A DNA stretch of 64,000 bases from Treponemataceae bacterium (lineage in GTDB: Bacteria; Spirochaetota; Spirochaetia; Treponematales; Rectinemataceae). The stretch covers positions 864,001 through 928,000 of the forward strand of contig CAXXVZ010000005.1 of assembly GCA_963678065.2 (NCBI GenBank), in the 5' to 3' direction. Below, one piece after another: positions 758 to 64,000 of this stretch. Made by a program: the position numbers and the translations under genes. The notes beneath the pieces are model-generated. The model was not told where the DNA came from. It made no database searches and worked only from the letters and a program-made list of their open reading frames with translations. Within the stretch, counting starts at the first letter, position 1. Every line of letters starts with the position of its first letter.

Positions 758-890
758 ACTAACGTTTCCGGCCTACGACGTTTGCGACCGCACAGGCGGG
801 CGCAAATGTGCCTGAGCGGAATGAGCGAATGCGAGTGAAGCGATGGCCGAAGAAGGAGCCGAAGGCGACTGATGAGCGTGGGCCGTGTTG

Positions 891-1892
891 TTATGCGCAG
901 TTATTTTTGAATATGTCATTAATAATATCAATCACTTCATTACTAAAACTATTTTGCTGATCTTCATTTATTATTATTTCCTTTTTTATTTTTACATAAA
1001 TCCAATCACTATCTTCGCAATACTCAAATCTCGAAGTATCAATATTCCAATTTTCATTTAGTGTATCTTTTTTCAGAGCGACACTAAGTATATATTCCCA
1101 ATATTGTGCGCCTTTATCTACCAAATTTAAATTCAAACCAATAAATATATCATCATTTTTTTTATACTTAATATATCGTCCTTTCGTTGTATCATCATAA
1201 AAATCATTAGCCCATGTTGATAACTCGAAATCCGATCCGATACCATCAATAATCATTTTCCCCGACTTCTCGACCAATTGAATAATCTTACACATAACCT
1301 TTAAAGATTCATGAATATCTTTTGGATTATAAAGCATAGCAACCTCATAAGGTGAAAGGATGGTATCAATTGATGATTTTATTATTAATTCTGATAACAG
1401 GTTTAGTGCTTCAGCTATAATATAAGAATCTTTTTGTAGATCATAACTGAACAAATATCTAATTAGGTCGTCCCAAATTACAATTTTAATAAACGAATAT
1501 TTTAATTTCGCATTTTCAATCTTATCTAGATGTTTATAGTTTTTAGGCAAAATAAATATTTGTCCTTTATAAGGCTTTTTACTATTTATTACCATTTCTG
1601 GATAACTATATATTTGATTGTCCTGCAATGGAGTGTCGATTCGAATTTTGTTTTCAATTAAGTAATAAGCTTTGCTATTAGTAATTACCAAATCAGGAAT
1701 GCCAGTATTATACCTTATCTGAGTAGAACAATGATTTAAATCTATAGAATCAATAGCATTCATATCTATTTTTAAATATGAAAATAATATATCTCTAAAA
1801 TATCTATATTTCAAAAGATTACATAAAATCTCTGTAGATGTATTTTCATCTTCTTTTGTTAGCCCATAAAATATTGATGTAGACCTATTCAT
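891..1892 (-). CDS. PD-(D/E)XK nuclease superfamily protein
   Basis: 333 aa; motif IPDLVI...YLIENKI; stop codon lies in attC R''. Confidence 0.75.
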   Translation of the reverse strand: MNRSTSIFYGLTKEDENTSTEILCNLLKYRYFRDILFSYLKIDMNAIDSIDLNHCSTQIRYNTGIPDLVITNSKAYYLIENKIRIDTPLQDNQIYSYPEMVINSKKPYKGQIFILPKNYKHLDKIENAKLKYSFIKIVIWDDLIRYLFSYDLQKDSYIIAEALNLLSELIIKSSIDTILSPYEVAMLYNPKDIHESLKVMCKIIQLVEKSGKMIIDGIGSDFELSTWANDFYDDTTKGRYIKYKKNDDIFIGLNLNLVDKGAQYWEYILSVALKKDTLNENWNIDTSRFEYCEDSDWIYVKIKKEIIINEDQQNSFSNEVIDIINDIFKNNCA

Positions 1893-2069
1893 ATAATATA
1901 TATATATCCTTCAAAAATAATTGCGCATAACGTTCGCCTGCCTACGACGTTGTGGCGAGCATCGGCGAGCCACAATGTGCCTGAGCAGAATGAGCGATAG
2001 CGAGTGCAGCGAAGGCCGAAGAAGGAGCCGATAGGCGACTGATGAGCGTGGGCAGTGCTGTTAGCCGCT

Positions 2070-2795
2070 TTAGCAAAAGATCCTATCCATATCCCCATTC
2101 TCTGATACTTTTTCTTTTTCTATCTTTCCGTTATTCCCATATACTATATACGCATTTTTACTTTTATCACTTCGGATTATCTGATAGCGATTATTCTCAA
2201 GTACCAATGCACAATTGTCTTCAATCCCAAGAACTTTTTTGTCATGTGTCTTCATAAACTCTATAAACTTTCCTTCCTGCTCTCGCGCGTTAAGATGAGG
2301 ACTATGACATCCACGCATTAGTCCAAGTCCATTTATATATGAATAATTCCATCCATCAGTATTTCCAAAACTTTCTGTATCACTAACTCCATACTCAAAC
2401 CAACATACTGATCCTGCACTTAATCCACTTAAAATAGTCCCTTTTTGAGATGCTTTTACTAGTAAATCTTGTATCCCATATTTTCTCCAAATATCCAACA
2501 TCATTTTCGTATCACCACCACCAACATATATAATATCTGCCATTTTTATTTTTGTTTCTATTTCACAATCATCAATATTTCTGTCCTTTAAACATAACAC
2601 ATCACAGTTACAGCCAAGTTTCTTACCATATACTTCTTGCACAGTCTGAATATATCCTTCCGGTTCTCCACTGGCTGTAGGAATAAAAAGATGGTGAGGA
2701 GATTTCTTTGAACACTTTTCGACAATATAACTATCGATCTCGAATGTTTCACCTGTGCGGATTTCTCCTCCACCAATGGCAATGATTATACTCAT
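2070..2795 (-). CDS. Peptidase E / peptidase S51 family
   Basis: 241 aa; motifs IAIGGG, FIPTAS, IYVGGGDT, GLSAGS; GAGG RBS. Confidence 0.9.
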   Translation of the reverse strand: MSIIIAIGGGEIRTGETFEIDSYIVEKCSKKSPHHLFIPTASGEPEGYIQTVQEVYGKKLGCNCDVLCLKDRNIDDCEIETKIKMADIIYVGGGDTKMMLDIWRKYGIQDLLVKASQKGTILSGLSAGSVCWFEYGVSDTESFGNTDGWNYSYINGLGLMRGCHSPHLNAREQEGKFIEFMKTHDKKVLGIEDNCALVLENNRYQIIRSDKSKNAYIVYGNNGKIEKEKVSENGDMDRIFC

Positions 2796-2828
2796 GTGGA
2801 ACTATTCCTCTCCATCTTTTGCTATTGC

Positions 2829-3085
2829 GGCTAACGTTCTGCCTGTTTACGACGATGGCGTGAGCATCGGCGAGCGCCATTGTGCCTGAGCGGAATGAGC
2901 GCATGCGAGTGCAGCGATGGCCGAAGAGGGAGCCTGCGACCGATGAGCGTGAACAGCGCTGTTAGTTGCAGTCGTGACCTTCGAGCGCGCTTGGATGGGG
3001 AGACTTGTCTCTCCATCCAATACTATATCTTGCGCGCGTTCTTCTCTTCCTCTTCTCTTACCCTTATTTTTTCTTTCACGATTGC
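2829..3085 (-). repeat. SNC, 1 copy
   Basis: Same ~258 bp unit. Confidence 0.9.
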
Positions 3086-3226
3086 AACTAACGTTCGCCT
3101 GCCTACGACGTTGTGGCGAGCATCGGCGAGCCACAATGTGCCTGAGCGGAATGAGCGCATGCGAGTGGAGCGATGGCCGAAGAAGGAGCCGATAGGCGAC
3201 TGATGAGCGTGGGCAGTGCTGTTAGG
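3086..3226 (-). repeat. attC: Representative attC site, major subtype
   Basis: + strand reads ACTAACGTTCGCC-TGCCTACG...CGTGGGCA-GTGCT-GTTAGGC. R and L boxes are complementary, with an internal hairpin TTGTGGCGAGC-ATCG-GCGAGCCACAA. Confidence 0.9.
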
Positions 3227-3257
3227 CGCTGGCTTTGCTCTTATTAAGATATACAAC

Positions 3258-4604
3258 CTACAATTTTAATCTCTCAGATATAACACTAGCCAGAAGATCA
3301 ACCATATCAATAAATACTGTTTTATCATTAATATCTTTCTTATTTATTAAGTTTCTTATAGCTTTTTCTTTCTGTGTATAATAATATTCTTGATTATTTA
3401 TTTCCCGTAGAGAATTAAAAGTCTGTCCAATATTCATTAACAATGCGGGGCTATCTTTAAAAAGGCTTAAATAATTCGTTGTGTTCCCAAAACCAGAAAT
3501 AAAGCTAACAATATTAAGCGCAAATGATACTGAAATACTACCAAGTTGTTTCGCTTGCTTTAACGCCCTATGTTTCATATGTTTAGGCAATTCTTCTTGA
3601 ATTTGGACTCTAAAAGTATTATCAAGATCTTTTCTAATTGTTTCCAATTCATTTATACTAAATATCTTACTAAATTCATTTAAATGTATTTTGTTTATTC
3701 CGCTAATTAAGTCATTGTATTTTAATTGGAATTTTGATTCTAACAACGGCTTTCGTATTTGTATAATATCATGAAACGATAAATTATCAATAATGCCATA
3801 AGAAACCATATATTTCTGCAATGAATCACATACATATTCAATTAATAATTTTGATAATATCTGATCTTCAGACAACCTTGATCTTTTTTGTGTAAGATCA
3901 GTAATATCATAATCAATATAATTCTCCTGAGGTAAGGCACTTTCACAGTTTACTACTCGGGCACCAGAAATATGATATAATAATTCTCTAGATATTTGTA
4001 TTATTGTTCTCTCTTTCGTTGATAAATCTCGTGTACAATCATCAATAAGACCTCGATCTAAAACATTGCTATTTTTAATTTTATTACATATACTTGTTAT
4101 TTTATCTTGATTCCTAATGGAAATATGACTTCGTACTACAGATTTCTCATCATTTAACTCTTCTAAAAATCTTTCTTTAAACCAACTAGAGTTTTCTTCT
4201 AATGGCCAGTCAACTGTCTTTACTATATTGTCTTTATAAAATTGTATGGCATTGTTTTTGTTTTCAAACTCTTTGTTTTGAAATATTTCAGAAATATCAT
4301 CTTTATCTGACCGAAGAGCAGGAATAATTATTCCTGTATTTAGCAACTCAGGATTTTCTTTAAAAAATTGATATACAAAATCTGAGGCTAAATGCGAAGC
4401 AGCAAATATGATATTACTTTTTACTAACAATAATGCTTTTATTTTTCTTTCACCATTTCTTTTTAGCTTTTCTAAATCAACTGTTCTATCAATGATTCTG
4501 TGATCAAAATCAGTAAAATATGCACGCGGACCATTCAAAGTCCTAGGATCTATTCGATACATAGCATTTACCTCATTTTTGTCTTTGCTTCTTGTTTTAA
4601 ACAT
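3258..4604 (-). CDS. Hypothetical protein
   Basis: 448 aa AT-rich ORF filling a cassette; the start may be the downstream Met (MYRIDP). Confidence 0.8.
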   Translation of the reverse strand: MFKTRSKDKNEVNAMYRIDPRTLNGPRAYFTDFDHRIIDRTVDLEKLKRNGERKIKALLLVKSNIIFAASHLASDFVYQFFKENPELLNTGIIIPALRSDKDDISEIFQNKEFENKNNAIQFYKDNIVKTVDWPLEENSSWFKERFLEELNDEKSVVRSHISIRNQDKITSICNKIKNSNVLDRGLIDDCTRDLSTKERTIIQISRELLYHISGARVVNCESALPQENYIDYDITDLTQKRSRLSEDQILSKLLIEYVCDSLQKYMVSYGIIDNLSFHDIIQIRKPLLESKFQLKYNDLISGINKIHLNEFSKIFSINELETIRKDLDNTFRVQIQEELPKHMKHRALKQAKQLGSISVSFALNIVSFISGFGNTTNYLSLFKDSPALLMNIGQTFNSLREINNQEYYYTQKEKAIRNLINKKDINDKTVFIDMVDLLASVISERLKL

Positions 4605-4781
4605 TTAGCCAAGAGCAAAGCTTGCGCCTAACGTTCGCCTGCCTACGACGTTGTGGCGAGCATCGGCGAGCCACAATGTGCCTGAATGGAACGAGCGCAT
4701 GCGAGTGCAATGAAGGCCGAAGAAGGAGCCAAAGGCGACTGATGAGCGTGGGCAGCGCTGTTATGCGAAGGATGACAATCT

Positions 4782-5657
4782 TCACAAGGGCGTTTTATTA
4801 TGCATTTTAGTCTTATTTTCTTTTATATGTTTGATCAATTCATCTAGTTCGTCTTCATCTATAGAAGGAGGAATATTAAATTTAGATACATCAAATATTT
4901 TCCATTTTTCAAGATTAAATTTATTTCCATTTATTTTATAATTTCTTCCTAAATCGTAAATATTTGAATCAAATATTTCTAGATTAAAATTTTCGAAGTT
5001 ATCCTTCAACCTAAAATAGTCGATTGATATAATGAAAACTAAAGAAATATTTTGAATTAAAAAATACACGTACACAACAAAATAGAAAAATATGCACATT
5101 AATAATATCTGAAATTTTAATTCCGGAGATATTTTAATCGTATCCAAATAAAACAATAAATATATTATATTTATAATTAAAACACTTAATTGCAAGACAT
5201 AATATACTGTTGTTTTCCATTTTTTATCTGTATGAACATTCCAAAGTTTTTTTAAATATATGGTCTTTTTTTGAAATAATTTTATAGCAATTAATCCACA
5301 ACAAGAAATAGTACAACTTAAAATTACTCCTAATAATGTTATCCCATTAAACATTAAAACGCTAAATAAAATCATCATAGAAATAATTATCATCAGAAAA
5401 GCAATAAAAATGAATGAATATACAAATTGTGATAATTTTATTATTAAATCACCGATCAATATTGCAAAGGTATCTTTTTTAAATTCAACATCGTCTAAGT
5501 TTTTTATATAAACAATTGGTTCTGAAAATTTTGGTCTCAAAATCGTAAATAAATATACTAATAGTATAAAAAGAAAACCTAATACCGTAAAACTAGAGTT
5601 CAGTATTACTGAAAATAGGTTTTGAAGATAAACTGTCTTTGGATCGAATAATGTCAT
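4782..5657 (-). CDS. Multi-pass membrane protein, hypothetical
   Basis: 291 aa with several hydrophobic segments; second gene of the glycosyltransferase cassette. Confidence 0.7.
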   Translation of the reverse strand: MTLFDPKTVYLQNLFSVILNSSFTVLGFLFILLVYLFTILRPKFSEPIVYIKNLDDVEFKKDTFAILIGDLIIKLSQFVYSFIFIAFLMIIISMMILFSVLMFNGITLLGVILSCTISCCGLIAIKLFQKKTIYLKKLWNVHTDKKWKTTVYYVLQLSVLIINIIYLLFYLDTIKISPELKFQILLMCIFFYFVVYVYFLIQNISLVFIISIDYFRLKDNFENFNLEIFDSNIYDLGRNYKINGNKFNLEKWKIFDVSKFNIPPSIDEDELDELIKHIKENKTKMHNKTPL

Positions 5658-6374
5658 TTTTGTACCCCAACAAATTATGTATATTCATAATCATACACTC
5701 GATAAGTAAATACTTTAGTATTTTTAACCCGTCTACAAATATTTTTAGTTTTGAAATTCCTTTTCTTTCTTCATAAATTGAATATAATTCTTTATATTTT
5801 AGATATTTATATCTATTTGCCATTATTTTTATTTCTGAAGAAAACTCCATTTCGGTTGTTTTATATTTTAAAGATTTGAATACATTATACTTAAAAATGT
5901 ACATACCAGATTGAGAATCTTTCAGCTTCAAAGAAAACAATATGTTTATAATACTTGTAACCATCATATTGCCATAATAGTTTATTTTTTTCATAGATTT
6001 TTATTTATTAATGGAAACCTTGACAAACAAAGGAAATCAATATTTTCAGAAATAATTTTGTCTAAATAACTATGTAATTTTGACAATGAATATGTCCCAT
6101 CTCCATCTATAATTATGACATAATCAGATTGCACTGATACACTTTCTATTCCTTTCCTACATGCATTACCATATCCGTTGTTTTTTTCTTCAACTATTAC
6201 AAAATTATATTTTCTAGCCACTGATTTGGTCTTATCGACAGAATTATTATCAATGACAATAATCTCGTCTATGCATTTTGGTATTTGCGACCCAATATAA
6301 TCAAGTCCTAATTCTTCATTTTTACACGGTATAACAAGGCTAATAAATAAATTGTTATACAACATATCCTCCAT
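5593..6374 (-). pseudogene. Glycosyltransferase family 2 (DPM1-like), frameshifted
   Basis: N-half (5991-6374) has ISLVIPCKNEE, IDNNSVD, IIDGDGTY. C-half (5593-5994) has DSQSGM and YEERKGISKL. Adding one A to the A5 run near 6000 joins them as ...INKKSMKKINY... Confidence 0.8.
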
Positions 6375-6404
6375 TTGGTATTGGTTGCTATTTTGTCATC
6401 TTTC

Positions 6405-6662
6405 GCATAACGTTCTGCCTGTTTGCGACGATGGCGTGAGCATCGGCGAGCGCCATTGTGCCTGAGCGGAATGAGCGTATGCGAGTGGAGCGATGGCCGA
6501 AGAGGGAGCTTGCGACCGATGAGCGTGAACAGCGCTGTTAGTTGCAGTCGTGACCTTCGAGCGCGCTTGGATGGGGAGACTTGTCTCCTCATCCAATACT
6601 CTATCTTGCGCGCGTTCTTCTCTTCCTCTTCTCTTACCCTTATTTTTTTCTTTCACGATTGC
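6405..6662 (-). repeat. SNC, 1 copy
   Basis: Same unit. Confidence 0.9.
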
Positions 6663-6883
6663 AACTAACGTTTGCCTGCCTACGACGTTGTGGCGAGCAT
6701 CGGCGAGCCACAATGTGCCTGAATGGAACGAGCTCATGCGAGTGCAATGAAGGCCGAAGAAGGAGCCGACAGGCGACTGATGAGCGTGGGCAGTGCTGTT
6801 AGCCGATGTGCCCCGCTCTCCCATTGTTACACTTTTCACATTTTCATTTACAAAATATACTTTTTATATACTATCTTTAGTTC

Positions 6884-7144
6884 TTAATTTTGCTCTATCA
6901 ATTTCCCATTCACATACTTATGAAGAATACTTGCCACAAGTGTCTGATACGGAATCCCTTCTTCCAATGCCTTTGTCTTAAGCCCATCCAAATCCTTTTT
7001 CGCGATTCGGATATTCATTCGTTGATCTTTTAACATCGTATTTTTTGCGGCTTCTTGTAATTGCTTAGTAAGCTCTTTTCTATTTTTTACACTTTTCCAC
7101 TCATCATTCTCTATCGAATTAAGGAGGTCCATTTCTTCTACCAT
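6884..7144 (-). CDS. Antitoxin, CopG/RHH-like (BrnA-like)
   Basis: 86 aa; RMNIRI...KALEEGIPYQTLVASILHKY; directly downstream of a BrnT-like toxin. Confidence 0.8.
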   Translation of the reverse strand: MVEEMDLLNSIENDEWKSVKNRKELTKQLQEAAKNTMLKDQRMNIRIAKKDLDGLKTKALEEGIPYQTLVASILHKYVNGKLIEQN

Positions 7145-7146
7145 TT

Positions 7147-7428
7147 CTATTTCCTCCTCTTTCCAGGAAAATATTTATCGGTATATTTCCTACTCGGAAA
7201 AATTGTCTTCATAAAATACCCTTGTTCTGTACATACCACAGGCACCACATATGCATAATCATCTATTCCTACAATGATTAATAATTGATTATTGTATTGT
7301 TCCGTATTTGGATGTTCTAAAACATCCACTATTCCTCCTTCTTCTATCGCAATGACGATTCTTTCGAATCCTATGCTTCGTTCTTTCTTGAGCTGAAGAT
7401 TTTTTTCTTCGTTCCAGTCAAAAACCAT
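7147..7428 (-). CDS. BrnT-like ribonuclease toxin
   Basis: 93 aa; FDWNEEKN...RSIGFE, EHPN, KTIFPSRK. Confidence 0.8.
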   Translation of the reverse strand: MVFDWNEEKNLQLKKERSIGFERIVIAIEEGGIVDVLEHPNTEQYNNQLLIIVGIDDYAYVVPVVCTEQGYFMKTIFPSRKYTDKYFPGKRRK

Positions 7429-7434
7429 ATTCTA

Positions 7435-7463
7435 AAACTAGACCAATGTGTGCCTTTTGTCAA
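7435..7463 (-). promoter_or_regulatory. Sigma70-type promoter, leaderless architecture
   Basis: TTGACA-17 bp-TAGTTT-6 bp-ATG(7428). Confidence 0.65.
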
Positions 7464-7674
7464 TACATGCATTTCTTTTTTTGCATGGCTTTGAAAGCAA
7501 CCCATCGCATATCTTGTCTTCATCTTGGCGGGGCATTTCGGCTAACGTTCGCCTGCCTACGACGTTGTGGCGAGCATCGGCGAGCCACAATGTGCCTGAG
7601 CGGAATGAGCGACAGCGAGTGCAGCGATGGCCGAAGAAGGAGCCGCAGGCGACTGATGAGCGTGGGCCGTGCTG

Positions 7675-8082
7675 TTAGCCGATGTTTATCGCGCTCTTCC
7701 CTTCACCCATTTTTTTGATCTTATTCTCTACCCATTTTACACAATACTCGGAAACCTTTACTGCATCATGATATTCTTGTTCACTGACGGGAGTATATTC
7801 CCCTGGATATCGTGTTTGTACCGCATAATCATTGAGAATCACAACATCTTTCAGTTCATGTGGTAGTTCAGAATATTTAGCTACTTCTCCCAATAAGGTC
7901 ACCATATTATGAATTTTAGGTGCTTCAACATCATGGAATAACAGAAATGCCTTAATCGCTTTTTCTGCTGCTTGTTGTGCCTGAAAACATAAATCTTCAC
8001 GACATATTTCATCAGATACTACTATTTTAGCTAAAGCAAGATTGCTTTTTGCCCGAAGAAGCCATTCCGCATGATTACTCAT
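7675..8082 (-). CDS. HEPN domain protein (MNT-HEPN toxin)
   Basis: CFQAQQAAEKAIKA, PKIHNM, YAVQTRYPG; start overlaps the stop of the upstream MNT gene. Confidence 0.85.
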   Translation of the reverse strand: MSNHAEWLLRAKSNLALAKIVVSDEICREDLCFQAQQAAEKAIKAFLLFHDVEAPKIHNMVTLLGEVAKYSELPHELKDVVILNDYAVQTRYPGEYTPVSEQEYHDAVKVSEYCVKWVENKIKKMGEGKSAINIG

Positions 8083-8395
8083 ACACAACAACACCTTCTC
8101 GTGCGATTGTTTTGTAAATCATTCCTGTTTCAAATTTCAATTTCTCATATTTGTCCGTATCAACCGCAATAAGGTCTATCGGGATTCCAATATTTTCAGT
8201 TACTAACATTCTATATACTTTTTGAGTAATTTCTCGTTCGTTCGTTATGTTATTTTTAAGAATGAGAAGATCATAATCGCTATTCTCGGAATTATCGCCA
8301 CGTGCCCTGGACCCAAACAAGATCACTTTGTATGGATGTACTGATTGAGCAATGACTTCCACAGCACGTCCCAGTTGTCCAACGGCAGCTTTCAT
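8075..8395 (-). CDS. Minimal nucleotidyltransferase (MNT antitoxin)
   Basis: 106 aa; LFGSRARGD...SDYDLL. Confidence 0.9.
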   Translation of the reverse strand: MKAAVGQLGRAVEVIAQSVHPYKVILFGSRARGDNSENSDYDLLILKNNITNEREITQKVYRMLVTENIGIPIDLIAVDTDKYEKLKFETGMIYKTIAREGVVVYE

Positions 8396-8453
8396 AACTC
8401 CATTGTATCCTATGGTTTACCGAAAAACCAGATATCTCCGCGCGATAAATTTC

Positions 8454-8710
8454 GGCTAACGTTTTGCCTGTTTGCGACGATGGCGCGAGCATCGGCGAGC
8501 GCCATTGTGCCTGAGCGGAATGAGCGCATGCGAGTGCAGCGATGGCCGAAGAGGGAGCTTGCGACCGATGAGCGTGAACAGCGCTGTTAGTTGCAGTCGT
8601 GACCTTCGAGCGCGCTTGGATGGGGAGACTTGTCTCCTCATCCAATGCTATATCTTGCGCGCGTTCTTCTCTTCCTCTTCTCTTAACCCTTATTTTTTTT
8701 TCACGATTGC
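8454..8710 (-). repeat. SNC, 1 copy
   Basis: Same unit. Confidence 0.9.
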
Positions 8711-8875
8711 AACTAACGTTCGCCTGCCTACGACGTTGTGGCGAGCATCGGCGAGCCACAATGTGCCTGAGCGGAATGAGCGCATGCGAGTGCAGCGATG
8801 GCCGAAGAAGGAGCCGATAGGCGACTGATGAGCGTGGGCAGTGCTGTTATGTGAAGTTTCCCCCGATCTTCAACC

Positions 8876-9328
8876 CTATTCCTTTATCTTTTCCTGTTTT
8901 TTATCTTTTATCTCATGCTTCATGATTTCCAAATATTCTTCTGCATTTACTATACTCATCTCCTTTCCAACATAATCATCCCCATTTCTTGTTATCAAAA
9001 CACTGATGCCATGTTCAAGTGCTGCATAATATTGTATTGCATCTTCTAGATCTTTGAACTTCGATGCCAATACCAAATCTATTATTTTTTCATCAACATT
9101 CACTAGTTTGGTTAATAATCTTAATTTTCGAAGATGCAGCAAGGCTAGTTCTTGCCCTAACCCTTTTTTCACTATGTAATACAAATTTGAAAATATCACA
9201 GGACTGATATACGCTTCAATTTTTCCCTTTTCTGCCAGTGAGAATAGTGTTGCTGCCGCTGGATAAAATGGCTGACGTTTCAGAAACATATCCAGGATGA
9301 TATCCGTATCGATAAATACCTTATTCAT
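8876..9328 (-). CDS. PIN domain toxin
   Basis: 150 aa; VFIDTDIILD, DLEDAIQY, LITRN. Confidence 0.88.
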   Translation of the reverse strand: MNKVFIDTDIILDMFLKRQPFYPAAATLFSLAEKGKIEAYISPVIFSNLYYIVKKGLGQELALLHLRKLRLLTKLVNVDEKIIDLVLASKFKDLEDAIQYYAALEHGISVLITRNGDDYVGKEMSIVNAEEYLEIMKHEIKDKKQEKIKE

Positions 9329-9570
9329 TTGTATTTATCCGTGAGATAGTCCACATATCCATCATCCATTGCCGAAATATCCACAGCATCAAGAATTCCA
9401 GATAATTCCATAACCAGAGGCGAATAGTGGGGTTCAGTTTTATCTTCAAGCGCAAGGATCTTGAAGTAGTCCTCAACTAATCGGGAAAGACTTCGTTTCC
9501 GTTTTTGAGCATATACTTTGGCGGTTTCTATTACTGTTTGATCCAGTTTGAGCGTCAGTTTTGTTTCCAT
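9325..9570 (-). CDS. Antitoxin (DUF6364-like, RHH)
   Basis: 81 aa; TKLTLKLD...AKVYA...SLSRLVEDYF; ATGA overlap with the PIN gene. Confidence 0.8.
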   Translation of the reverse strand: METKLTLKLDQTVIETAKVYAQKRKRSLSRLVEDYFKILALEDKTEPHYSPLVMELSGILDAVDISAMDDGYVDYLTDKYK

Positions 9571-9580
9571 ACATTACCTC

Positions 9581-9619
9581 AATACGTATAATACTAATAA
9601 ATAAAATACGTATTGTCAA
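9581..9619 (-). promoter_or_regulatory. Promoter with two palindromic operators
   Basis: TTGACA-17 bp-TAGTAT; AATACGTATT at 9605-9614 and AATACGTATA at 9581-9590. Confidence 0.65.
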
Positions 9620-9653
9620 TATCTTTCTCGTACTCTCTCTCGGGGGAAATTTC

Positions 9654-10168: not shown

Positions 10169-10301
10169 AACTAACGTTTCCGGCCTGCGACGTTTTGGCC
10201 CGCACAGGCGGGACAAAATGTGCCTGAATGGAACGAGCGAATGCGAGTGCAATGAAGGCCGAAGAAGGAGCCAAAGGCGACTGATGAGCGTGGGCCGCGG
10301 T

Positions 10302-13292: not shown

Positions 13293-13305
13293 GTTTTCGT
13301 ATTGC

Positions 13306-15536: not shown

Positions 15537-15558
15537 CTATTGGTTTTGAATACTGCGT

Positions 15559-44204: not shown

Positions 44205-44252
44205 ACCTGTCTCCTTATGTTCAATTCATATACTCACGTTGCATACATACAT

Positions 44253-56040: not shown

Positions 56041-57130
56041 ATTATTCTTACCTGGAGGATTGCCACGTAAATATCTCTTATATGCTTCATCGAGAATGGT
56101 TTCGCTTTCTTCGATAATAACAGAATTTTTATGTATTTTATTTACTAATTGATCAGCAGGTAAAGATATACTAGATATTGATGATTCAACTTTTATACAT
56201 AATTCCTTATGGATTATTTGTATATCTTTATATAATTTATTAAATGTTTCATATTCAGAAAATCCCATACATAGATTGGGAATTTGTATTTTAAAATCTT
56301 TAAATTTTTTAAACGCCTCATTTATTTTTCCATCACGATTCCGCTGTATTTCATATGCCACCTGCTGTGGCATATAAAGCCTAATATCCCTATTCAACAT
56401 ATCATTCAACTTTGAAAATTCAATTAAGTCATTACTTGAATAATAATATAAATCTAACCATATATTAGAGTCTAGGAACAAATTTTTCACCGAAATTACT
56501 CCTTTCCTCAAAATTCATTCTATCTATTATGCTTGGTGATTGATTATCCAATTAGAATATCAGATCCCTCGGGAATTATAATTGCGCCTAACGTTCGCCT
56601 GCCTACGACGTTGTGGCGAGCATCGGCGAGCCACAATGTGCCTGAGCGGAATGAGCGTTAGCGAGTGGAGCGATGGCCGAAGAAGGAGCCGCAGGCGACT
56701 GATGAGCGTGGGCAGTGCTGTTAGGCGAAGTAGCTCAGAAAATTATACACGACTAATTCCCAAATCTGTAAATATTGGATCCAAATCATCTTGTAGTAAT
56801 GGCCATTTATTAGTGATATTGTCTTCATAATTGAATACGAGTATATACATTATGATCACTACAGGTTGCCTAAAAAGCAACTTAGTTGCTGAACGCTCAA
56901 TAATTCTCTCTATAATATATGATTTTTCTTTAATAAAATTATCAACAATTTCTGGTGTGATAATTTTAATTTCATCACAAAATGCATCAAGAAGGTAAAA
57001 ACTGAGTTTTTCCTCATACTCAAAATTTATTTGAGAACCATATTTTTCACGGATATGCTCTACAATTGGATTCACATAACTATCTTCGCACTCAAAACTG
57101 TTTTCTGCTTCAATAAAAATACAATCAGTT

Positions 57131-58525
57131 GAGGCTTTTTCAAAACTCCGTAATCCGCTTTGTAAAAAAGCGAGTTATTGTAACTGAAGCTTCGTTTTTA
57201 CACAGTAAAAATTACATGTGCAGTAAAAAGGGCTCTCTTTTCAGTGCAAAAGATGGACTACGCCTACAAAACCCAGTTCTGTCGGATCACCAGGTTACAA
57301 TTTCTGCAGTTCGGGAAGGATGAAGTACTGCAAAGCCTTGATGGCCGCCAGAACCACTACCCCGCACATGAGCAGGAATGATACTTTCTCAAATCCCCGT
57401 ACAAATATCTGACCCGGTATGAGCCAATCCTTCAAATGCGAGTTTGCACGTTCAACCGTTGTCCTGATTGTGTACCGCTCCTTCTGTGACGGCGAAAATG
57501 GTTCCCGTTCCGTTCCACGACGCGTATTCCGATCAATCAGCGGAACACGCCCACGTCCCTGGATATAGGTCGCGATGGGATCCGCATCGTATGCAGCGTC
57601 CATGACTGAATACAGATGTCGGACCTTTTTCTCTGTCATCTTTTCCAGAGGAATCGCTACTTGCGAATCATGAACATTGGCGCCGGTTACGACTGCTGAA
57701 ATAGGGAATCCTGTGTCGCTGACATCAAGGTGCAACTTGTATCCTTTCCATGTTTCCCTATTCCCCTGGCTGTTCTTCTTGCATCCCCATGCACAGTTTT
57801 TTGATAGTTCTGACAAGGATTTCCTGACGCTTTGGCCGACTTGCTTTTCTATCTGTGTCGGCTCCTTCACAGGCCGAACTTCTCCTTTTCGGGGACGACC
57901 CCGTTTCCGTTGCGGTGTCGTGGAAGAAACAGCTTCACGTTTGGCAGGTACAGGTTTTTCTCGTGCTCGTATCTCCGTCGCATCCCGATTTATGTGTCCG
58001 ACGATATGGCCGTCATGACAATCCTTCACCATGGTATTCAAAGTCTGAATCAGCGGAGTCTTTTTTGAAAACTCCGCGTAGCGACGCGAAAAGGTCGCAG
58101 AGCTTGGAACGGAGGTGAAGCCGCATATCCTCCGCAGATTCGGATCGTTGATCAGCCTGTTCCTAAGGTCCGTGACTGTCGCTATGTGGAATACAGTACG
58201 GGCGAAAAACGCCCGCATGATCGGTTCGTTCCGATGTGGAGGACGGCCAGTTCGTGCACATGGTGATGTAATCCGTGGCTGAGCATCTTCAATGACTCGG
58301 AGCAGAGCGATAAAAAAGCGATGTTCGTCGGTGAGATATTCTTCGAAACATCGCTGGATATCGTAAGAAATCGGCAAAAGTATTTGCGCTCCGCCCAGTA
58401 TTTCTGGTATGGTTTTCATCAGCGGGGGCTCCTCCTGGTGACGTTTGTGTTGCAACATCATCATACAGGTTCTGTCCCCGCTTTTCATTATATTTCATTC
58501 TGTTCTTGTGTTTTGAAAGAACCTC
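57131..58525 (-). mobile_element. IS5/IS1182-like insertion sequence
   Basis: IRs GAGGCTTTTTCAAAAC / GTTTTGAAAGAACCTC; 4 bp TSD AGTT; 1395 bp. Confidence 0.88.
57295..58488 (-). CDS. DDE transposase (IS5/IS1182-like)
   Basis: TGRPP, LRRICGF, PSSATFSR, DAT, GYKLHL, MDAAYD, RTTVERANS; start uncertain. Confidence 0.88.
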   Translation of the reverse strand: MKSGDRTCMMMLQHKRHQEEPPLMKTIPEILGGAQILLPISYDIQRCFEEYLTDEHRFFIALLRVIEDAQPRITSPCARTGRPPHRNEPIMRAFFARTVFHIATVTDLRNRLINDPNLRRICGFTSVPSSATFSRRYAEFSKKTPLIQTLNTMVKDCHDGHIVGHINRDATEIRAREKPVPAKREAVSSTTPQRKRGRPRKGEVRPVKEPTQIEKQVGQSVRKSLSELSKNCAWGCKKNSQGNRETWKGYKLHLDVSDTGFPISAVVTGANVHDSQVAIPLEKMTEKKVRHLYSVMDAAYDADPIATYIQGRGRVPLIDRNTRRGTEREPFSPSQKERYTIRTTVERANSHLKDWLIPGQIFVRGFEKVSFLLMCGVVVLAAIKALQYFILPELQKL

Positions 58526-59106
58526 AGTTGTTTCAATTAGAGCCATGCTTCGGGCAATCAAACGATGAATACCTGGATCAGAGGTTTTTTGAGGTTTATA
58601 TATTGTGTTATGTGTCAGTTCACTATATGCATGTTGCAATATAGTCCGTACCTGTATCTCACACGAGATTCCTTTTTTTAAAACAATATCTCTACATATG
58701 ATATCGTTCTTTGGTCTCAAAATATAATGAACAGACTGGTACTCGAACTTTGTTGGATTTTTTCTTCGTTCATCTTCAAAATCTCTGTCGCAACTAAACG
58801 AAAATACATTCTGCTCTTCAATGATTTTTTTAAATTTCTTCAACCGATTTATTGTAAGAAATATAAAACGAATACCCACTTTATCAGTTATATCATTATA
58901 CGGATCGCTATAATTTTTTTCACGATAGAAAGCTTTTTGTATTAATGATTTTTCATCTTTTACTCGAAAACTAGGATCAATACAAAAATCGCTCTTACTC
59001 CCTTTATTCTCTGTCCATTTCAAAATTAAGAAATCTCTTACATACTCTCCTAACCCAGCATACATACTTTTTTCTTTTTTGAATTTATCAACAAAGTCGT
59101 TCTCTA

Positions 59107-60247
59107 TCATACTTTTTGATCCTCAATTTTTCCTTTTATAGCTACAGTAGTTTCAGTTTGATCCGAAGAAATTATACGAATAACATCCGACAAAGAACCA
59201 CCGACTCTTAATATTTTTACTCCACTAGAAAATCTAATATTTCTTCTACGAAGCTTATTCTTTATTAGGCTCAAATCCTTAACTATTCCCTGTTCTGGAT
59301 AATGCGATACACGCATATAGGCTAGATATTTGTCCCTATGCCTAATTTGAAGATTTGCCTCTGCAAATTCCTTTACACCAATAGTAGTCGCAACTTCATT
59401 TCGTAGATACCCATACAAACTATCTTGATAGTTTAGTTTTACTGTAAGCTCACTATCCAAATCATTGATATATTCTCTTGTAAGTAAGTAAAATTGCTGT
59501 GTTTGAGCTTTATTACTTTCAGCTATTTTGCATCCTAAAAAACCAAAATAAAAATATTTAGCCGCTTGCGTTGATTCAGAACGAGTCATATTGTGATCAT
59601 ATATAAAGGCATCATAGGCATCATTGTTAGCAATAAAAAACCCTATTTTGTATAATTTTTGTTGCGGGGTAAGAAATAGGTCAGCTAAATATTCGATAGT
59701 CAGATTTCCAGAAAAACCAGATTTATGAAAACCAGTATGTACTTCAGCTTTTACTAACGCACAACATTTCTTGCTAGATGCCCCAATGGTACCAATAATT
59801 ACTGCTAATATTCCTCCAGGTATTTTTCTAGAAATTTGAGCCATAGAAAGCTTTTCTGCAAATTCTTTAGAATGTACTACATAGTCAGTTTCGCCACAAC
59901 TCAATATATTTACGACTGTTTGATAAACACTATCAGTCTTCTTATCAACTATATCCATTTGAATACAGTGAGAGTTATTTCCTAACGCATCAACAATTCG
60001 TTTCTCTAGCGTTTCAATCCCTTTGCTATCTAGGGGAGCAACTGTATTACTAAAATGCGGTATAGTCGGTTTATCTGTATCATCTCTTTGCATACTAATT
60101 CTTTCGTATTTAGCACAACATGACTTATGAATTTACCTTGTATTCATTGGGTAATATTGTAACTCACGTTGTCATACTAATGAAAGATTTAGTAACTTCA
60201 TGAAAAATAATTTTTCCAATTCGAAAATTTTCAAAAAATTGTGACAT
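59107..60247 (-). pseudogene. Nucleoid-associated (YejK/NdpA-like) protein interrupted by a MITE
   Basis: Removing the MITE restores MSQFFENFRIGKIIFHEV-MQRDD... (346 aa). Family call rests on IIFHEV, PGGILAV, ALVKAE, KLYKIG, AKYFYFGFLGC. Confidence 0.7.
60095..60192 (+). mobile_element. 98 bp MITE with TA target duplication
   Basis: Nearly identical to 33321-33418; TA at 60093-60094 and 60193-60194. Confidence 0.92.
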
Positions 60248-60273
60248 GTTTTTCTCCTTTTCTGAGCTATTTC

Positions 60274-60530
60274 GCCTAACGTTCTGCCTGTTTACGACGA
60301 TGGCGTGAGCATCGGCGAGCGCCATTGTGCCTGAGCGGAATGAGCGCATGCGAGTGCAGCGATGGCCGAAGAGGGAGCCTGCGACCGATGAGCGTGAACA
60401 GCGCTGTTAGTTGCAGTCGTGACCTTCGAGCGCGCTTGGATGGGGAGACTTGTCTCTCCATCCAATACTATATCTTGCGCGCGTTCTTCTCTTCCTCTTC
60501 TCTTACCCTTATTTTTTCTTTCACGATTGC
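60274..60530 (-). repeat. SNC, 1 copy
   Basis: Same unit. Confidence 0.9.
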
Positions 60531-60749
60531 AACTAACGTTCGCCTGCCTACGACGTTGTGGCGAGCATCGGCGAGCCACAATGTGCCTGAATGGAACGAG
60601 CGGATGCGAGTGGAGTGAAGGCCGAAGAAGGAGCCGACAGGCGACTGATGAGCGTGGGCAGTGCTGTTAGGCGCTGTACCAATTCCCCGTCTTAATTGAA
60701 CCATCTCCGCGCCGGACGCCCGGAGGGCGAGGCGCGGAGATATTATATC

Positions 60750-61901
60750 CTAATCTTTAATCATAAAACTTTGAACAAAATATTCAGGAAATAATATTCC
60801 TATTCTTCTTTTTAACTTATTCCATCCTAAAACATTTTTATCAATTACTATTTCAAATTGCTTTCTATAATCCTCTTGTAAATTTTCGAGAATCAATTCC
60901 TTAATTCCATTAATAGTATTTAAACAGGTATCAATATCATCCTTTTCAATCTGAAACATTGTCTGAGAAGCAAATTCAACGGAAATATCTTTTTCAGATT
61001 CAAATACAGGAATAGTCCCTTCAAAAAACACATGATCAAATTTATTAACTCCTGGCTGAATATTCCCATGCAAGAAGTCATTTCGCTTATTCATCATTAC
61101 TAAAAAGTTTTTAAACCTAATATCCATTTGGTCAATCTGCTTTTTTAATCCAATACAATTCAAATGTAATGTCTTTATCCTTATATCAATATTATTTCTA
61201 AAAATACTATCTAATAGTCTTTCATCTTCTTTTATTTCAGGCCTTGCAAAGTAAAATACTACAAGATTGATAAATGACTCACCTACAACTGGCGCCAACA
61301 TTCGTATTGCTAATCCATAATCCTTTATTTTTATTATAGAATCTGTGTATCTCTTCATATCAGATAGGTACTTATCTGCTTCAATTTTAGTAAAAAAGGG
61401 CTTATCTATCTCTATTGGTTTCTCTGGATTTACTTCTGAGTATTTTGAATAAAAGTATTTCAAAGAATTATTAATTCTACTATATGTATTTGAAAACAAA
61501 TCCCAATGCTCAATATTGTTTTTTATACTCAATATTCCTTTTACATTTTTAGATATTTCATTTTGAAGCTCATTAATTATTGTATCTTCATTAATATTTT
61601 CAAAATCAGCTTTATTATTTGCAAATACATGAAATTCCAAAAAACGGATAGATCCTAAAATATCTATATACACTTTTTTATACTTAAATGAATAATGCCA
61701 TTGGATAAAATTATCGGAATCATTTGCTCTTATAAAAGATTGAAAGCCATTTGGTTGTCCATATTTGAATCTAAGGAAGCAGTATAAATCTATTTGTTTA
61801 ATACGATGGTTGTTCCTAATAATCAAACTTTCCATACTTTTGTTTTTTATTAAGTCAATGTATTCTTTATCTTTATGCAAAGTCATTTCATTTATTATCA
61901 T
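60750..61901 (-). CDS. Hypothetical protein with HEPN-like RxxxxH motif, intact copy
   Basis: 383 aa; VGESF...KRNDFLHGN. Confidence 0.75.
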   Translation of the reverse strand: MIINEMTLHKDKEYIDLIKNKSMESLIIRNNHRIKQIDLYCFLRFKYGQPNGFQSFIRANDSDNFIQWHYSFKYKKVYIDILGSIRFLEFHVFANNKADFENINEDTIINELQNEISKNVKGILSIKNNIEHWDLFSNTYSRINNSLKYFYSKYSEVNPEKPIEIDKPFFTKIEADKYLSDMKRYTDSIIKIKDYGLAIRMLAPVVGESFINLVVFYFARPEIKEDERLLDSIFRNNIDIRIKTLHLNCIGLKKQIDQMDIRFKNFLVMMNKRNDFLHGNIQPGVNKFDHVFFEGTIPVFESEKDISVEFASQTMFQIEKDDIDTCLNTINGIKELILENLQEDYRKQFEIVIDKNVLGWNKLKRRIGILFPEYFVQSFMIKD

Positions 61902-62231
61902 TGCATCCTCATATTCGATGTAGTTAAATCAATATTCATCGTTAAATTGTACGAGCCCGACGGCCGGAGGCCCGGGCGAGTCCTAATCAAACAAATGCGG
62001 GAAATTGGTATTGCGCCTAACGTTTGCCTGCCTACGACGTTGTGGCGAGCATCGGCGAGCCACAATGTGCCTGAGAGGAATGAGCGCATGCGAGTGGAGC
62101 GAAGACCGAAGAAGGAGCCGAAGGCGACTGATGAGCGTGGGCAGTGCTGTTAGGTGCAGTGCCAACCATCTTCGGGTAATGACGCGCGCCGACGGCCGGA
62201 GGCCCGGCACGGCATTGAAAATACTTGTCTA

Positions 62232-62891
62232 TTATATTTCGTTTTTCAATTCTGTGCTTATGAATTCTCTTACAGCCTCAACAACCTCTACTATATTCAA
62301 TATAGATTTCTCAATATCATTAATAACCTCAAAAGCATGGCCCGCTTTTTGAATCTCCTTTAGATTAACGTTTTTTCTTCCTTTTATGCGATTAATCTCT
62401 TCTACTTTGTAATACTTATCTGCCGTTCCACATACTACCATTGATCTATTAACCGACTCAATAATCGTTGAAAAAATATCGTGAACATATACTCCAGGCG
62501 TAAGCCAAATAATCAATGAATCAGCCGAAATCAAGTTTGCATTCAACTGCTTCATTAACATTGTAGTTCCAAGTGATTTCCCAATATATACTGTTTCTGC
62601 ATAATGGCTAGTTTCATTTTTAAGATTCTCTCCAATTACCCTACTGTCATAATCAAACCATGTATCCTGCAATTCCTCAGTTGCATTCATGAATTCAATG
62701 TTTTCATTATATCTATAATCAATACCATACGTATCATAACCATTGCTTCGAAATAGCTCTAATAAATAAAAGAAACAAGGCGCACTTAACGAATATCCTA
62801 GTCCTGGATAAAATATAGCGATTTTGCTATTTCCCTTCAGAGACTGTTGTACTGTAATGTTTTTTTTGTTATAGCCGAATATTTCATTCAT
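62232..62891 (-). CDS. Alpha/beta hydrolase
   Basis: YPGLGY, IGKSLG nucleophile elbow, GTAD, AGH. Confidence 0.85.
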   Translation of the reverse strand: MNEIFGYNKKNITVQQSLKGNSKIAIFYPGLGYSLSAPCFFYLLELFRSNGYDTYGIDYRYNENIEFMNATEELQDTWFDYDSRVIGENLKNETSHYAETVYIGKSLGTTMLMKQLNANLISADSLIIWLTPGVYVHDIFSTIIESVNRSMVVCGTADKYYKVEEINRIKGRKNVNLKEIQKAGHAFEVINDIEKSILNIVEVVEAVREFISTELKNEI

Positions 62892-63121
62892 GCTTTTCTT
62901 CCTCCACAGAAATTAAATGCAAATTTGCGCCCGACGGCCGGAGGCCCGGGCGCTCTCTTCGCCCAAAACGATGTTGGTTGGCATTGCACCTAACGTTTCC
63001 GGCCTGCGACGTTTTGGTGAGCATCGGCGAACCAAAATGTGCCTGAATGGAACGAGCGCATGCGAGTGGAATGAAGGCCGAAGAAGGAGCCAAAGGCGAC
63101 TGATGAGCGTGGGCCGCGGTG

Positions 63122-63943
63122 TTAGACGACGTTTTTCAGGAAATCATTTATAAATATGTCTTTCCAGAATTTAGTATAGTCATATTTTTCTTTCTCGATT
63201 GTTATATCGCTTTTTTTTATAAATTCATACAAAAATGCAGAACATATTTCAAATAGTACCCAAAATTGGATATTAACCATTTTTTTTCTCTCATTAATAT
63301 CTGTCATTTGAGAATTTTGTAACAAATTCAAATACTCACAATGAGCATAACTTGATAAATATGAATACAGGAATGAGCTTTGATAAGGAGTAACATTCAT
63401 TATTTTCATTATGTTTTTCCATCCAGGTCTCCATTTTCCTCTATTTTTGTATTCTGCTTTTTGATCTTTAGGTAATATTTTAAAACAATTATTATTGTAT
63501 ACTTTTTTTTCAATTTCGATAATTGCATTTTTTTCTTGTTTTAGTTTTTCAATTCCATCGGCATCTAATGGAATAAAGTGTTGTCTTGTAAGCATCCCCT
63601 CTCGTTCCCAGCTATAATATCTAAATTCCAATTCTTCATTATTTTTGGAATCAATATAGATATAGTAAAATAATAATACTGTTTCTAAAGTTGCTCTATT
63701 TATTGTAAGTATTGCTGAATAATCTTGTACCTTAACTTGTATTTTCCCATCATCAAGATTGGATCCATTTCGCAATGTACACATCGTAATAAAATGACAA
63801 TATATCTTGATAAAAAATTCATAGCCATAGGCTGTAATCCTATCAGGTATTGTTTTTTTATTTTGAATAGCCTTATCCACTTTATCAAATATTTGCATAA
63901 ACTGTACAATTTCATTATCAATATCAATTTTATTAGGATCCAT
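63122..63943 (-). CDS. Hypothetical protein (DUF5677-like)
   Basis: 273 aa; NRATLE...YI and YSYLSSYAH; stop codon lies in attC R''. Confidence 0.65.
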   Translation of the reverse strand: MDPNKIDIDNEIVQFMQIFDKVDKAIQNKKTIPDRITAYGYEFFIKIYCHFITMCTLRNGSNLDDGKIQVKVQDYSAILTINRATLETVLLFYYIYIDSKNNEELEFRYYSWEREGMLTRQHFIPLDADGIEKLKQEKNAIIEIEKKVYNNNCFKILPKDQKAEYKNRGKWRPGWKNIMKIMNVTPYQSSFLYSYLSSYAHCEYLNLLQNSQMTDINERKKMVNIQFWVLFEICSAFLYEFIKKSDITIEKEKYDYTKFWKDIFINDFLKNVV

Positions 63944-64000
63944 AATCTCTCCTGAAAAATGTCGTCTAACGTTCGCCTGCCTACGACGTTTTGTCCCGCA

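What the first reader, a model, noticed from the sequence alone, without database searches (positions are those of the whole stretch)
889..63970. Cassette-specific 19-24 bp inverted repeats join the two ends of many cassettes
Seen in sequence, left end versus reverse complement of right end: 3221-4632 GTTAGGCGCTGGCTTTGCTCTT / GTTAGGCGCAAGCTTTGCTCTT; 13698-14973 GTTAGGCGACGTGTTGTTTTGCG / GTTAGGCGACATATTGTTTTGCG; 37601-38532 GTTAGGCGCTGTGTTTTTGAAAAT / GTTAGGCGCAATGTTTTTGAAAAT; 45781-47078 GTTAGGCGAAGTAATGTGGAAA / GTTAGGCGAAATAATGTGGAAA; 49328-50066 GTTAGGCGAAGTCACAAAGGAC / GTTAGGCGAAATCACAAAGGAC; 56720-60280 GTTAGGCGAAGTAGCTCAGAAAA / GTTAGGCGAAATAGCTCAGAAAA. The pattern also holds for 889-1932, 2060-2835, 4760-6411 and 63120-63970. 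The extension differs per cassette, mismatches cluster at positions 10-11 (often a G-T on +), and it can overlap the last codons of the gene. Established: about 7 bp R'/R'' complementarity is expected in the excised circle. Inference: the extra 12-17 bp is either a footprint of cassette genesis (fold-back copying of one end) or a stem that makes the circle's own attC more recombinogenic.
Basis: partly seen in the sequence, partly recalled or inferred. Interest (0 to 1): 0.85.

Follow-up and report, generated by a model that had tools for sequence, protein, structure and literature searches.

The report
Self-pairing ends on integron-like cassettes
Nearly every mobile gene cassette in this huge bacterial gene-capture array has two matching ends that can pair into a 20-base stem with one fixed mispair, and the neighbouring recombinase lacks the part that textbook integron enzymes use, so this looks like an integron variant with a different site design.

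Summary
Confirmed. The window lies in a 176-kb cassette array (177 attC-like repeats). A cassette's own ends pair at positions 1-9 and 12-~22 (9.1/10 at 12-21 versus 3.2 for shuffled ends; 0 of 20,000 permutations). Position 11 never pairs Watson-Crick (0 of 167); it is a G·T on the bottom strand. Pairing to 9-11 nt is published and I see it in VCR-type and class 1 cassettes. The second stem is not general: 0/98, 1/62 and 0/11 in canonical arrays, against 49/58 in arrays beside relatives of this array's recombinase. That enzyme lacks the 41-residue IntI insertion, the attC stems lack extrahelical bases, and attI has dif-like 11-6-11 geometry. The stem is about 20-fold more conserved than its flanks, and one identical end pair carries four unrelated genes, so one-off fold-back copying is unlikely. 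Best reading (0.6): positions 2-12 are the recombinase arm, the wobble marks the strand, and 13-22 is a clamp that closes the site around the gene. No recombination was tested. Not found in ten library searches; key older papers were unavailable. This scan noted the same design earlier on other spirochaete and CPR DNA.

The parts
1..64000 (-). Central part of a cassette array that runs from window -109,318 to +67,571 (G000:C5 754.7-931.6 kb); cassette genes on the - strand, so + is the bottom strand. Two further parts lie just beyond the window: the inferred attI (L008:1115-1142, window +67,560 to +67,587; 11-bp arm + 6-bp spacer + 11-bp arm) and the 393-aa insertion-less tyrosine recombinase gene (L008:1450-2631, window +67,895 to +69,076, - strand, reading towards the array)
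   Evidence: (177 attC-like hits on C5, 165 full length; 167 cassettes with both ends); attI; recombinase
3221..3242 (+). Example left end (R'' side, gene 3' end): arm positions 1-12, G at position 11 (3231), distal stem 13-22
4611..4632 (+). Matching right end of the same cassette (R' side, gene 5' end); T at 4622 faces G3231; inferred crossover at 4631|4632
3093..3220 (+). attC interior belonging to cassette 3221-4632: 7- and 5-nt spacers, 8-bp L stem without a bulge, branched terminal structure; 74 full copies (121-129 nt) in the window
890..1931 (-). Cassette with paired ends (21 of 22); the gene stops in the TAA of R''
2060..2835 (-). Cassette with paired ends (20 of 22; T·T at 10 and 11); Peptidase_S51 gene whose last codons lie in the stem
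4760..6411 (-). Cassette with paired ends (18 of 20)
13698..14973 (-). Cassette whose 23+23-nt end pair is identical to that of three unrelated cargoes upstream of the window (-90739, -87557, -24778)
37601..38532 (-). Cassette with paired ends (22 of 24)
45781..47078 (-). Cassette with paired ends (21 of 22)
49329..50066 (-). Cassette with paired ends (21 of 22)
56720..60280 (-). Cassette with paired ends (22 of 23), enlarged by a DDE transposase element
63121..63970 (-). Cassette with paired ends (20 of 21)
2961..3092 (-). Example of the ORF-less 132-bp cassette (27 copies in the window, 50 in the array); its stem ends at position 17; it has its own attC interior type

Best explanation
The paired ends are a working, selected part of the recombination site of an integron-like system run by a tyrosine recombinase that lacks the IntI insertion. 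SHOWN: the pairing, its strand bias, its conservation, its co-occurrence with this recombinase type, bulge-free attC stems and an 11-6-11 attI. INFERRED: (1) positions 2-12 are the 11-bp recombinase-binding arm; on the cassette's 5' end it also serves as the right arm of attI after integration. (2) The fixed mispair at 11 is a G·T on the bottom strand and an A·C on the top strand, and replaces the extrahelical bases as the strand and orientation mark. (3) Positions 13-22 are a sequence-free clamp. In the excised single-stranded circle they extend the attC stem, so circles are better substrates than array sites (bias to integration and storage). In the array they let a cassette's own ends pair with the gene looped out; since the attC interiors are near-identical, a hybrid L stem can then form from the two flanking interiors. 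Two adjacent looped-out cassettes would give two fully paired sites whose exchange releases the usual circle. (4) New cassettes reuse existing end frames with new cargo.
For: Own versus shuffled ends. Position 11: 0 of 167 Watson-Crick, 67 of 75 G·T on +; the wobble flips with attC orientation in inverted segments of L074 and L090. attC interior travels with the cassette on its right (48 of 48), fixing + as the bottom strand. L stem 8/8 without a bulge on + in 154 of 165. Recombinase has gaps of 31+10 residues against IntI1 and scores 197 bits, under the 265 cut-off of TIGR02249. Second stem in 49 of 58 end pairs beside related recombinases versus 0 of 98 (canonical spirochaete arrays, including 0 of 7 in this genome's own second array), 1 of 62 (VCR-type), 0 of 11 (class 1). 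Five genomes with such arrays have no IntI over the cut-off. Best inverted arm at spacer 6 in 18 and spacer 7 in 5 of 27 attI candidates. Stem 13-21 variable in 1 of 198 columns versus 49 of 528 (flank) and 700 of 6569 (body). Whole-cassette folding: own ends pair (P>0.5) in 28 of 36, and in 5 of 36 when positions 13-28 are foreign; hybrid L stem 20 versus 2 of 36; the ordinary array attC R pair forms in 1 of 36 on each side. Thirteen short cassettes (<330 bp) have stems ending at 14-17 versus median 21.
Against: No recombination, binding or circle was observed; the contigs laid cannot show circles and their 'joints' are repeat artefacts. In the circle, positions 1-12 suffice for R-box pairing in 63 of 73. 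Stem length does not rise with cassette length between 400 and 1700 bp (rho -0.03, n=62), distal duplex energy trends slightly the wrong way there (rho 0.29, p=0.02), and 9 of the 13 short cassettes come from one array. ViennaRNA treats kilobase loops crudely and ignores kinetics and SSB. In a Chryseobacterium plasmid array the wobble is kept but the distal stem is only 3-4 bp on 600-1100-bp cassettes, so a 10-bp clamp is not universal. This genome's attI left arm scores poorly in absolute terms (-8.9 bits). Eight of 75 representatives have T·T at 11. The canonical controls are related genomes (six of one genus, two of another) and kin are not independent. How paired changes arise is unexplained.
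Confidence: 0.6

Rival explanations
1. Genesis footprint: one end is copied from the other by fold-back synthesis when a cassette is made, and the extension has no later role.
For: Near-perfect complementarity over 75 different sequences with few internal mismatches (9 in 69 stems) is hard to reach by stepwise mutation; in 19 of 69 the stop codon lies within the paired ends; in two cassette families both ends changed together at one position (5 or 6).
Against: Position 11 is never complementary (0 of 167); the stem is about 20-fold more conserved than its flanks; an identical pair, including a non-Watson-Crick G·T at 13, sits on four unrelated cargoes, and near-identical pairs recur in other genomes on cargo without detectable homology; 50 of 69 genes stop beyond position 22.
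Confidence: 0.13
2. Templated correction: ends pair in single-stranded intermediates only because of the 12-bp arm, and mismatch repair or conversion keeps extending and homogenising them without a benefit.
For: Explains paired changes and low divergence at both ends.
Against: Does not explain the sharp end near position 22, the persistent mispair at 10-11, or why canonical arrays with 9-12 paired bases show no second stem.
Confidence: 0.13
3. RNA-level role: the ends pair in the transcript (terminator, processing signal, or shielding of the ribosome-binding site).
For: The stem ends just before the purine-rich 5' leader; both ends lie on one transcript.
Against: The transcript has the - strand sequence, where position 11 is A·C; wobble pairs favour the + strand at 11 and in the L stem; bottom strand more stable in 73 of 73; ORF-less cassettes keep the pattern.
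Confidence: 0.06
4. It is the ordinary, already described extension of R'/R'' pairing in attC sites, served by the genome's canonical IntI in trans.
For: Bouvier 2009 states pairing of 9-11 consecutive nt for most cassettes; VCR-type ends pair 89% at 9 and 71% at 11; the genome has a canonical IntI on C3. I recall 'variable inverse repeats' in the Pseudomonas alcaligenes array (Vaisvila 2001), which I could not read.
Against: No second stem in 0/98, 1/62, 0/11 canonical pairs; the C3 IntI has its own array with extrahelical bases and 8-bp pairing; five other genomes have the long design and no canonical IntI.
Confidence: 0.08

Closest known systems
Canonical integrons (IntI, attI, attC), especially sedentary chromosomal arrays such as the Vibrio VCR array
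   Same: Tyrosine recombinase beside attI; head-to-tail cassettes; repeated folding sites with GTT/AAC ends, unpaired spacer and L stem; bottom-strand bias; own-end pairing to 9-11 nt (PMC2727003, passages read)
   Different: Recombinase lacks the 41-residue insertion; attC lacks extrahelical bases; fixed G·T at 11; second 10-bp stem; attI with 11-6-11 geometry
Treponema-type integrons with intI transcribed towards the cassettes (Wu et al. 2013, PMC3607928, parts 1-2 of 4 read)
   Same: Probable host group; recombinase and cassettes in the same direction
   Different: Those have canonical IntI and attC with a protruding base; in eight related genomes and this genome's C3 array the ends pair 7-9 bp only (0 of 98 with a second stem)
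Xer/dif recombination (XerCD, XerA; IMEX elements such as CTXphi)
   Same: Recombinase colinear with XerA (5HXY); 11-6-11 site geometry (dif layout recalled, not from a call); folded single-stranded partner as in CTXphi (recalled)
   Different: One dedicated recombinase beside a large array; the genome has separate XerC/D-like genes on C3
'Integron-like' tyrosine recombinase subgroup of Smyshlyaev et al. 2021 (PMC8138268, passages read)
   Same: [quoted passage not shown]
   Different: The passages read describe no cassette arrays or sites for insertion-less members; I did not test membership in that subgroup

Membership tests
Canonical integron | Tyrosine recombinase with intact catalytic residues next to the array | tested here: met
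   PF00589 and PF13495 hits; R248, K273/K276, H337, R340, H363, Y372 invariant in the alignment with IntI1
Canonical integron | IntI-specific insertion (I2 helix) | tested here: not met
   Gaps of 31+10 residues against IntI1 and the C3 IntI; two separate blocks against 2A3V; 197 of 265 bits
Canonical integron | Array of cassettes bounded by repeated sites with GTT/AAC ends, genes co-oriented | tested here: met
   177 repeats, 167 cassettes; duplicated cassettes in different neighbourhoods
Canonical integron | attC folds on the bottom strand with R box, unpaired spacer and L box | tested here: met
   (in silico)
Canonical integron | Extrahelical bases in L'' | tested here: not met
   8-bp L stem without a bulge in 154 of 165, whereas the C3 array shows the bulge
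Canonical integron | attI next to the recombinase gene at the leading end of the array | tested here: met
   The last cassette ends without an attC interior 323 bp from the gene end; same layout in relatives
Canonical integron | Pc promoter driving the cassettes | not tested
   Only one ORF-less cassette was scanned (no sigma-70-like hit)
Canonical integron | Recombinase-catalysed excision and integration through a single-stranded site | not testable with these tools
   Indirect only: repeated cassettes in different neighbourhoods
Xer/dif system | 11-6-11 site with inverted arms | tested here: inconclusive
   Spacer 6 best in 18 of 27 attI candidates; clear in several relatives, weak in this genome
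Xer/dif system | Housekeeping XerC/D role at the terminus | tested here: inconclusive
   Better XerC-family matches lie on C3 (308 and 249 bits versus 173), which argues against; position relative to the terminus could not be judged

The most novel reading that the evidence does not exclude
A widespread, undescribed class of integron-like elements (Spirochaetota, Bacteroidota, and per earlier scan notes CPR bacteria) in which a Xer-like recombinase without the I2 helix recombines a dif-like attI with bulge-free folded sites. Strand choice is set by one G·T wobble, each cassette supplies both halves of its own site, excision goes through looped-out cassettes, and new cassettes arise by cargo exchange inside reusable end frames. 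It would be a living model of the step from Xer to IntI and a handle on cassette genesis, and is missed by pipelines that filter on the I2 domain.
Probability: 0.4. Interest if true: 0.9.

Novelty: new variant of a known kind. Interest (0 to 1): 0.72.

Why it matters
The I2 insertion and extrahelical bases are treated as the core of integron recombination, and screening pipelines keep only integrases with that domain (PMC9176274, passages read). A 176-kb array built without either implies another way to choose the strand and to bias integration over excision, and suggests a large cassette reservoir that is not being counted. Escudero 2016 (PMC4792948, passages read) proposes a Xer-like ancestor and says no reliable model of cassette genesis exists. 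End frames reused on unrelated genes give a traceable mark for that question, and every step can be tested with standard conjugation assays.

Tried and rejected
Rfam scan of the window: no family. VCR motif in viral contigs: 0 hits. attC repeat against plasmids: no match. FlaA family search for host phylum: nothing rang, controls included, uninformative; the top PDB match of ribosomal L2 was 8FMW, which I recall as a Borrelia ribosome, so 'spirochaete' is an inference, backed by Treponema-type arrays in the same order. The search for related loci gave two loci without a usable array. Twelve of 20 regions fetched downstream of canonical IntI genes (L061-L072) showed no array with my detector and were dropped; 5 of the 20 regions examined beside insertion-less relatives gave no scorable pair; Persicobacter and C. 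oryzae regions gave no scorable pair. Contig 'joints' were rejected as repeat artefacts, and cassettes without cover in run X6 are not used as evidence; small-share runs are not used as habitat evidence. A continuous relation of stem length to cassette length was not found. The five array intervals without the second stem in register are four long intervals whose two ends appear to come from different cassettes and one with a 1-nt bulge (34622). Literature: ten searches listed no paper describing the second stem, the position-11 wobble or arrays beside insertion-less recombinases; I read only passages or parts of 12 papers. Vaisvila 2001 and Rowe-Magnus 2003 are not held; Stokes 1997 and Coleman 2004 were not looked up; no supplements were read, and attC alignments in supplements could bear on novelty.
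Full report
Setting. The window is G000:C5:864,001-928,000 of a 5.27-Mb genome of about 59% GC; the window has 38%. A profile of the repeat finds 177 copies on C5, all on one strand, from 754.7 to 931.4 kb, plus one partial copy on C2; 165 are full length and delimit 167 cassettes with both ends. Cassette genes run on the - strand. At the right end the last cassette stops without a repeat and is followed by a tyrosine recombinase gene that reads towards the array. The host is probably a spirochaete: inference from the best PDB match of L2 (organism recalled) and from Treponema-type arrays in the same order.

Observation. On 75 non-redundant cassettes, own ends match at 9.13 of positions 12-21 against 3.17 for cross pairs; 67 of 75 against 41 of 5550 reach 8 or more; none of 20,000 permutations comes near; neighbouring ends in the array score 3.4. 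The pattern is regular: positions 1-9 pair at 97-100%, position 10 in 33 of 75, position 11 never (0 of 167), positions 12-21 at 72-99%, then falling to chance; stems end at 18-25, median 22. At position 11 the + strand has G·T in 67 and T·T in 8 of 75. Over the whole array 162 of 167 match at 5 or more of positions 12-17. Contigs from two runs reproduce five window cassettes end to end.

Polarity. One attC interior type always has the ORF-less cassette on its right (48 of 48), so the interior belongs to the cassette on its right, the crossover is at the left end of the repeat, and + is the bottom strand. The inner L stem pairs 8 of 8 on + without a bulge in 154 of 165 sites, always with one or two G·T pairs. 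The circle junction is more stable on + in 73 of 73. In inverted array segments of two other genomes the position-11 wobble flips together with the spacer asymmetry.

Is it a general attC property? Partly. Bouvier et al. 2009 (PMC2727003, passages) state that self-pairing extends to 9-11 consecutive nt for most cassettes. I see that: in 62 VCR-type pairs from metagenome loci (107 intervals, 67 distinct, 62 passing the R-box filter) pairing is 89% at 9, 71% at 11, 39% at 12 and chance after, and 1 of 62 has the second stem. Class 1 cassettes pair 8-12 nt and 0 of 11 have it (19 genes examined). Canonical-IntI arrays in eight related genomes plus this genome's own second array on C3 give 0 of 98 (117 intervals, 109 passing, 98 distinct). 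Arrays beside relatives of this array's recombinase give 49 of 58 (88 intervals, 64 passing, 58 distinct, 15 of 20 regions contributing), with the G/A mispair at 11 in 46 of 58. These genomes are kin, so the contrast is descriptive rather than a clean test.

The recombinase. It scores 197 bits against the 265 cut-off of TIGR02249, aligns to VchIntIA (2A3V) in two blocks and colinearly to XerA, and has gaps of 31 and 10 residues against IntI1. The genome also has a canonical IntI with its own bulged attC sites and separate XerC/D-like genes. Five other genomes with the long design have no IntI over the cut-off, so the design does not depend on IntI in trans. Relatives occur in 35 of 401 sampled genomes of the phylum, this one included. 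A Chryseobacterium plasmid (NZ_CP041688.1) has an insertion-less recombinase followed by cassettes, three of which show the same mispair at 11 with only 3-4 bp beyond; single examples were seen in Chondrinema (by eye) and Hymenobacter plasmids. Smyshlyaev et al. 2021 (PMC8138268, passages) note that the insertion is not fully conserved in their integron-like subgroup but call it essential for integron function.

attI. Scoring the sequence upstream of the first cassette with a profile of cassette 5' arms (positions 2-12), the best inverted arm lies at a 6-bp spacer in 18 and a 7-bp spacer in 5 of 27 loci. This is the 11-6-11 layout that I recall for dif sites. It explains why positions 1-4, 8 and 10-12 are conserved in sequence while 13-22 are free: inference, the arm is 2-12.

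Footprint or function? Within 11 families of homologous cassettes, columns 13-21 vary in 1 of 198, flanks 22-45 in 49 of 528, bodies in 700 of 6569 (p = 2e-6 against the flanks). Four cassettes with no detectable protein homology share an identical 23+23-nt pair including a G·T at 13, and near-identical pairs recur in other genomes on cargo without tblastx homology. In 50 of 69 cassettes the gene stops beyond position 22. A one-off fold-back copy predicts a match at 11, decay at flank rate and unique ends; none holds. Against a purely selective story, internal mismatches are rare (9 in 69 stems) and two families changed both ends at once, so some templated step may generate new frames; that remains unexplained.

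Mechanism. With DNA parameters, the circle junction is more stable than the array site in 70 of 73 cases (mean -12.4 kcal/mol); the R box pairs in 72 versus 30 of 73. Replacing 13-28 costs 9 kcal/mol but leaves the R box paired in 63 of 73. The distal stem matters more in the array: folding whole cassettes under 900 bp with both flanking repeats, own ends pair in 28 of 36, and in 5 of 36 with foreign 13-28; a hybrid L stem from the two flanking interiors forms in 20 versus 2 of 36; the ordinary array site forms in 1 of 36 per side. Cassettes under 330 bp have shorter stems (13 cases, three genomes), but there is no gradient above 400 bp. I therefore propose: arm 2-12, wobble as strand mark, clamp 13-22 that closes the site around the gene both in the circle and by loop-out in the array; two adjacent looped-out cassettes give two complete sites for excision. 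These folds are equilibrium models with crude long-loop terms; nothing here shows recombination.

Prior knowledge. Ten library searches found no description of the second stem, the fixed wobble or arrays beside insertion-less recombinases. I saw passages only of PMC5371416, PMC8352920, PMC2727003, PMC8138268, PMC8618304, PMC4792948, PMC3053210, PMC8946536, PMC1382264, PMC9176274 and bioRxiv 2025.06.18.660453, and parts 1-2 of 4 of PMC3607928. Vaisvila 2001, which I recall mentions variable inverse repeats around Pseudomonas cassettes, and Rowe-Magnus 2003 were not available. Earlier notes of this scan report the same design in other spirochaete and CPR genomes; they are unchecked leads, and one pointed me to Bouvier 2009 and one used the loop-out wording.

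Verdict. It works like an integron but fails two defining features (I2 insertion, extrahelical bases), so I do not file it as a canonical integron. New variant of a known kind; interest 0.72; if a distinct, widespread insertion-less integron class is confirmed at the bench, 0.9.

Noticed in passing
window 116-246, 2961-3092 and 25 more; 50 of 167 in the array: One ORF-less 132-bp cassette, often in tandem, with its own attC interior type, invariant ends, an internal inverted repeat and a pyrimidine tract; it is also the cassette at attI. No sigma-70-like promoter or terminator hit in one copy. Possibly a selfish or spacer cassette.
   Followed up: partly
G000:C3:96,956-126,000 (L009): A second, canonical integron in the same genome: IntI over the cut-off, also reading towards its array, with bulged attC sites; each cassette 5' end has a small hairpin right after the 8-bp pairing, as in the treponeme-like arrays.
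   Followed up: partly
L008:1450-2631, residues 23-60: HARP-like N-terminal domain on the recombinase (24.8 bits, cut-off 25); similar N-terminal extensions align in the C3 IntI and two Bacteroidota recombinases. HARP is recalled as a DNA-annealing module.
   Followed up: partly
L180:13131-13168, 15226-15263, 17607-17644 (Chryseobacterium plasmid NZ_CP041688.1): A 38-bp cargo-less cassette that is only the paired ends plus a short loop, in at least three copies: a bare end frame.
   Followed up: no
L037 (G041:C12): All cassettes of this array share almost the same end pair, with a shifted register in place of the usual wobble: the extension is constant there, not cassette-specific.
   Followed up: no
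L074 (G624) and L090 (G004): Array segments inverted relative to the recombinase; the wobble and spacer asymmetry flip with them.
   Followed up: partly
L182:8615-8708 (Chondrinema plasmid NZ_CP111070.1); array cassette at window -90739: A group II intron appears to interrupt the R'' end of a cassette right after TAA in the plasmid array; a reverse-transcriptase-like ORF (by eye) also lies in the 3055-bp cassette upstream of the window.
   Followed up: no
window -102242, -76056, -41190, -28655 (outside the window): Several attC interiors are cut by the same insertion element at nearly the same place; ISL3 and DDE transposases also sit inside window cassettes at 31780, 18452 and 57295.
   Followed up: no
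window -50348 and -76796 (outside the window): Cassettes whose 5' arm differs from their own 3' arm only at position 5 or 5-6, as if the arm had been exchanged further in than the usual crossover.
   Followed up: no
G000:C2:667,433-667,506: A lone, partial attC-like repeat outside the array.
   Followed up: no
one search hits H8-H25: Acinetobacter plasmids, mostly from farm sources, carry a 46% identical recombinase match next to IS26; whether it derives from such an array was not examined.
   Followed up: no
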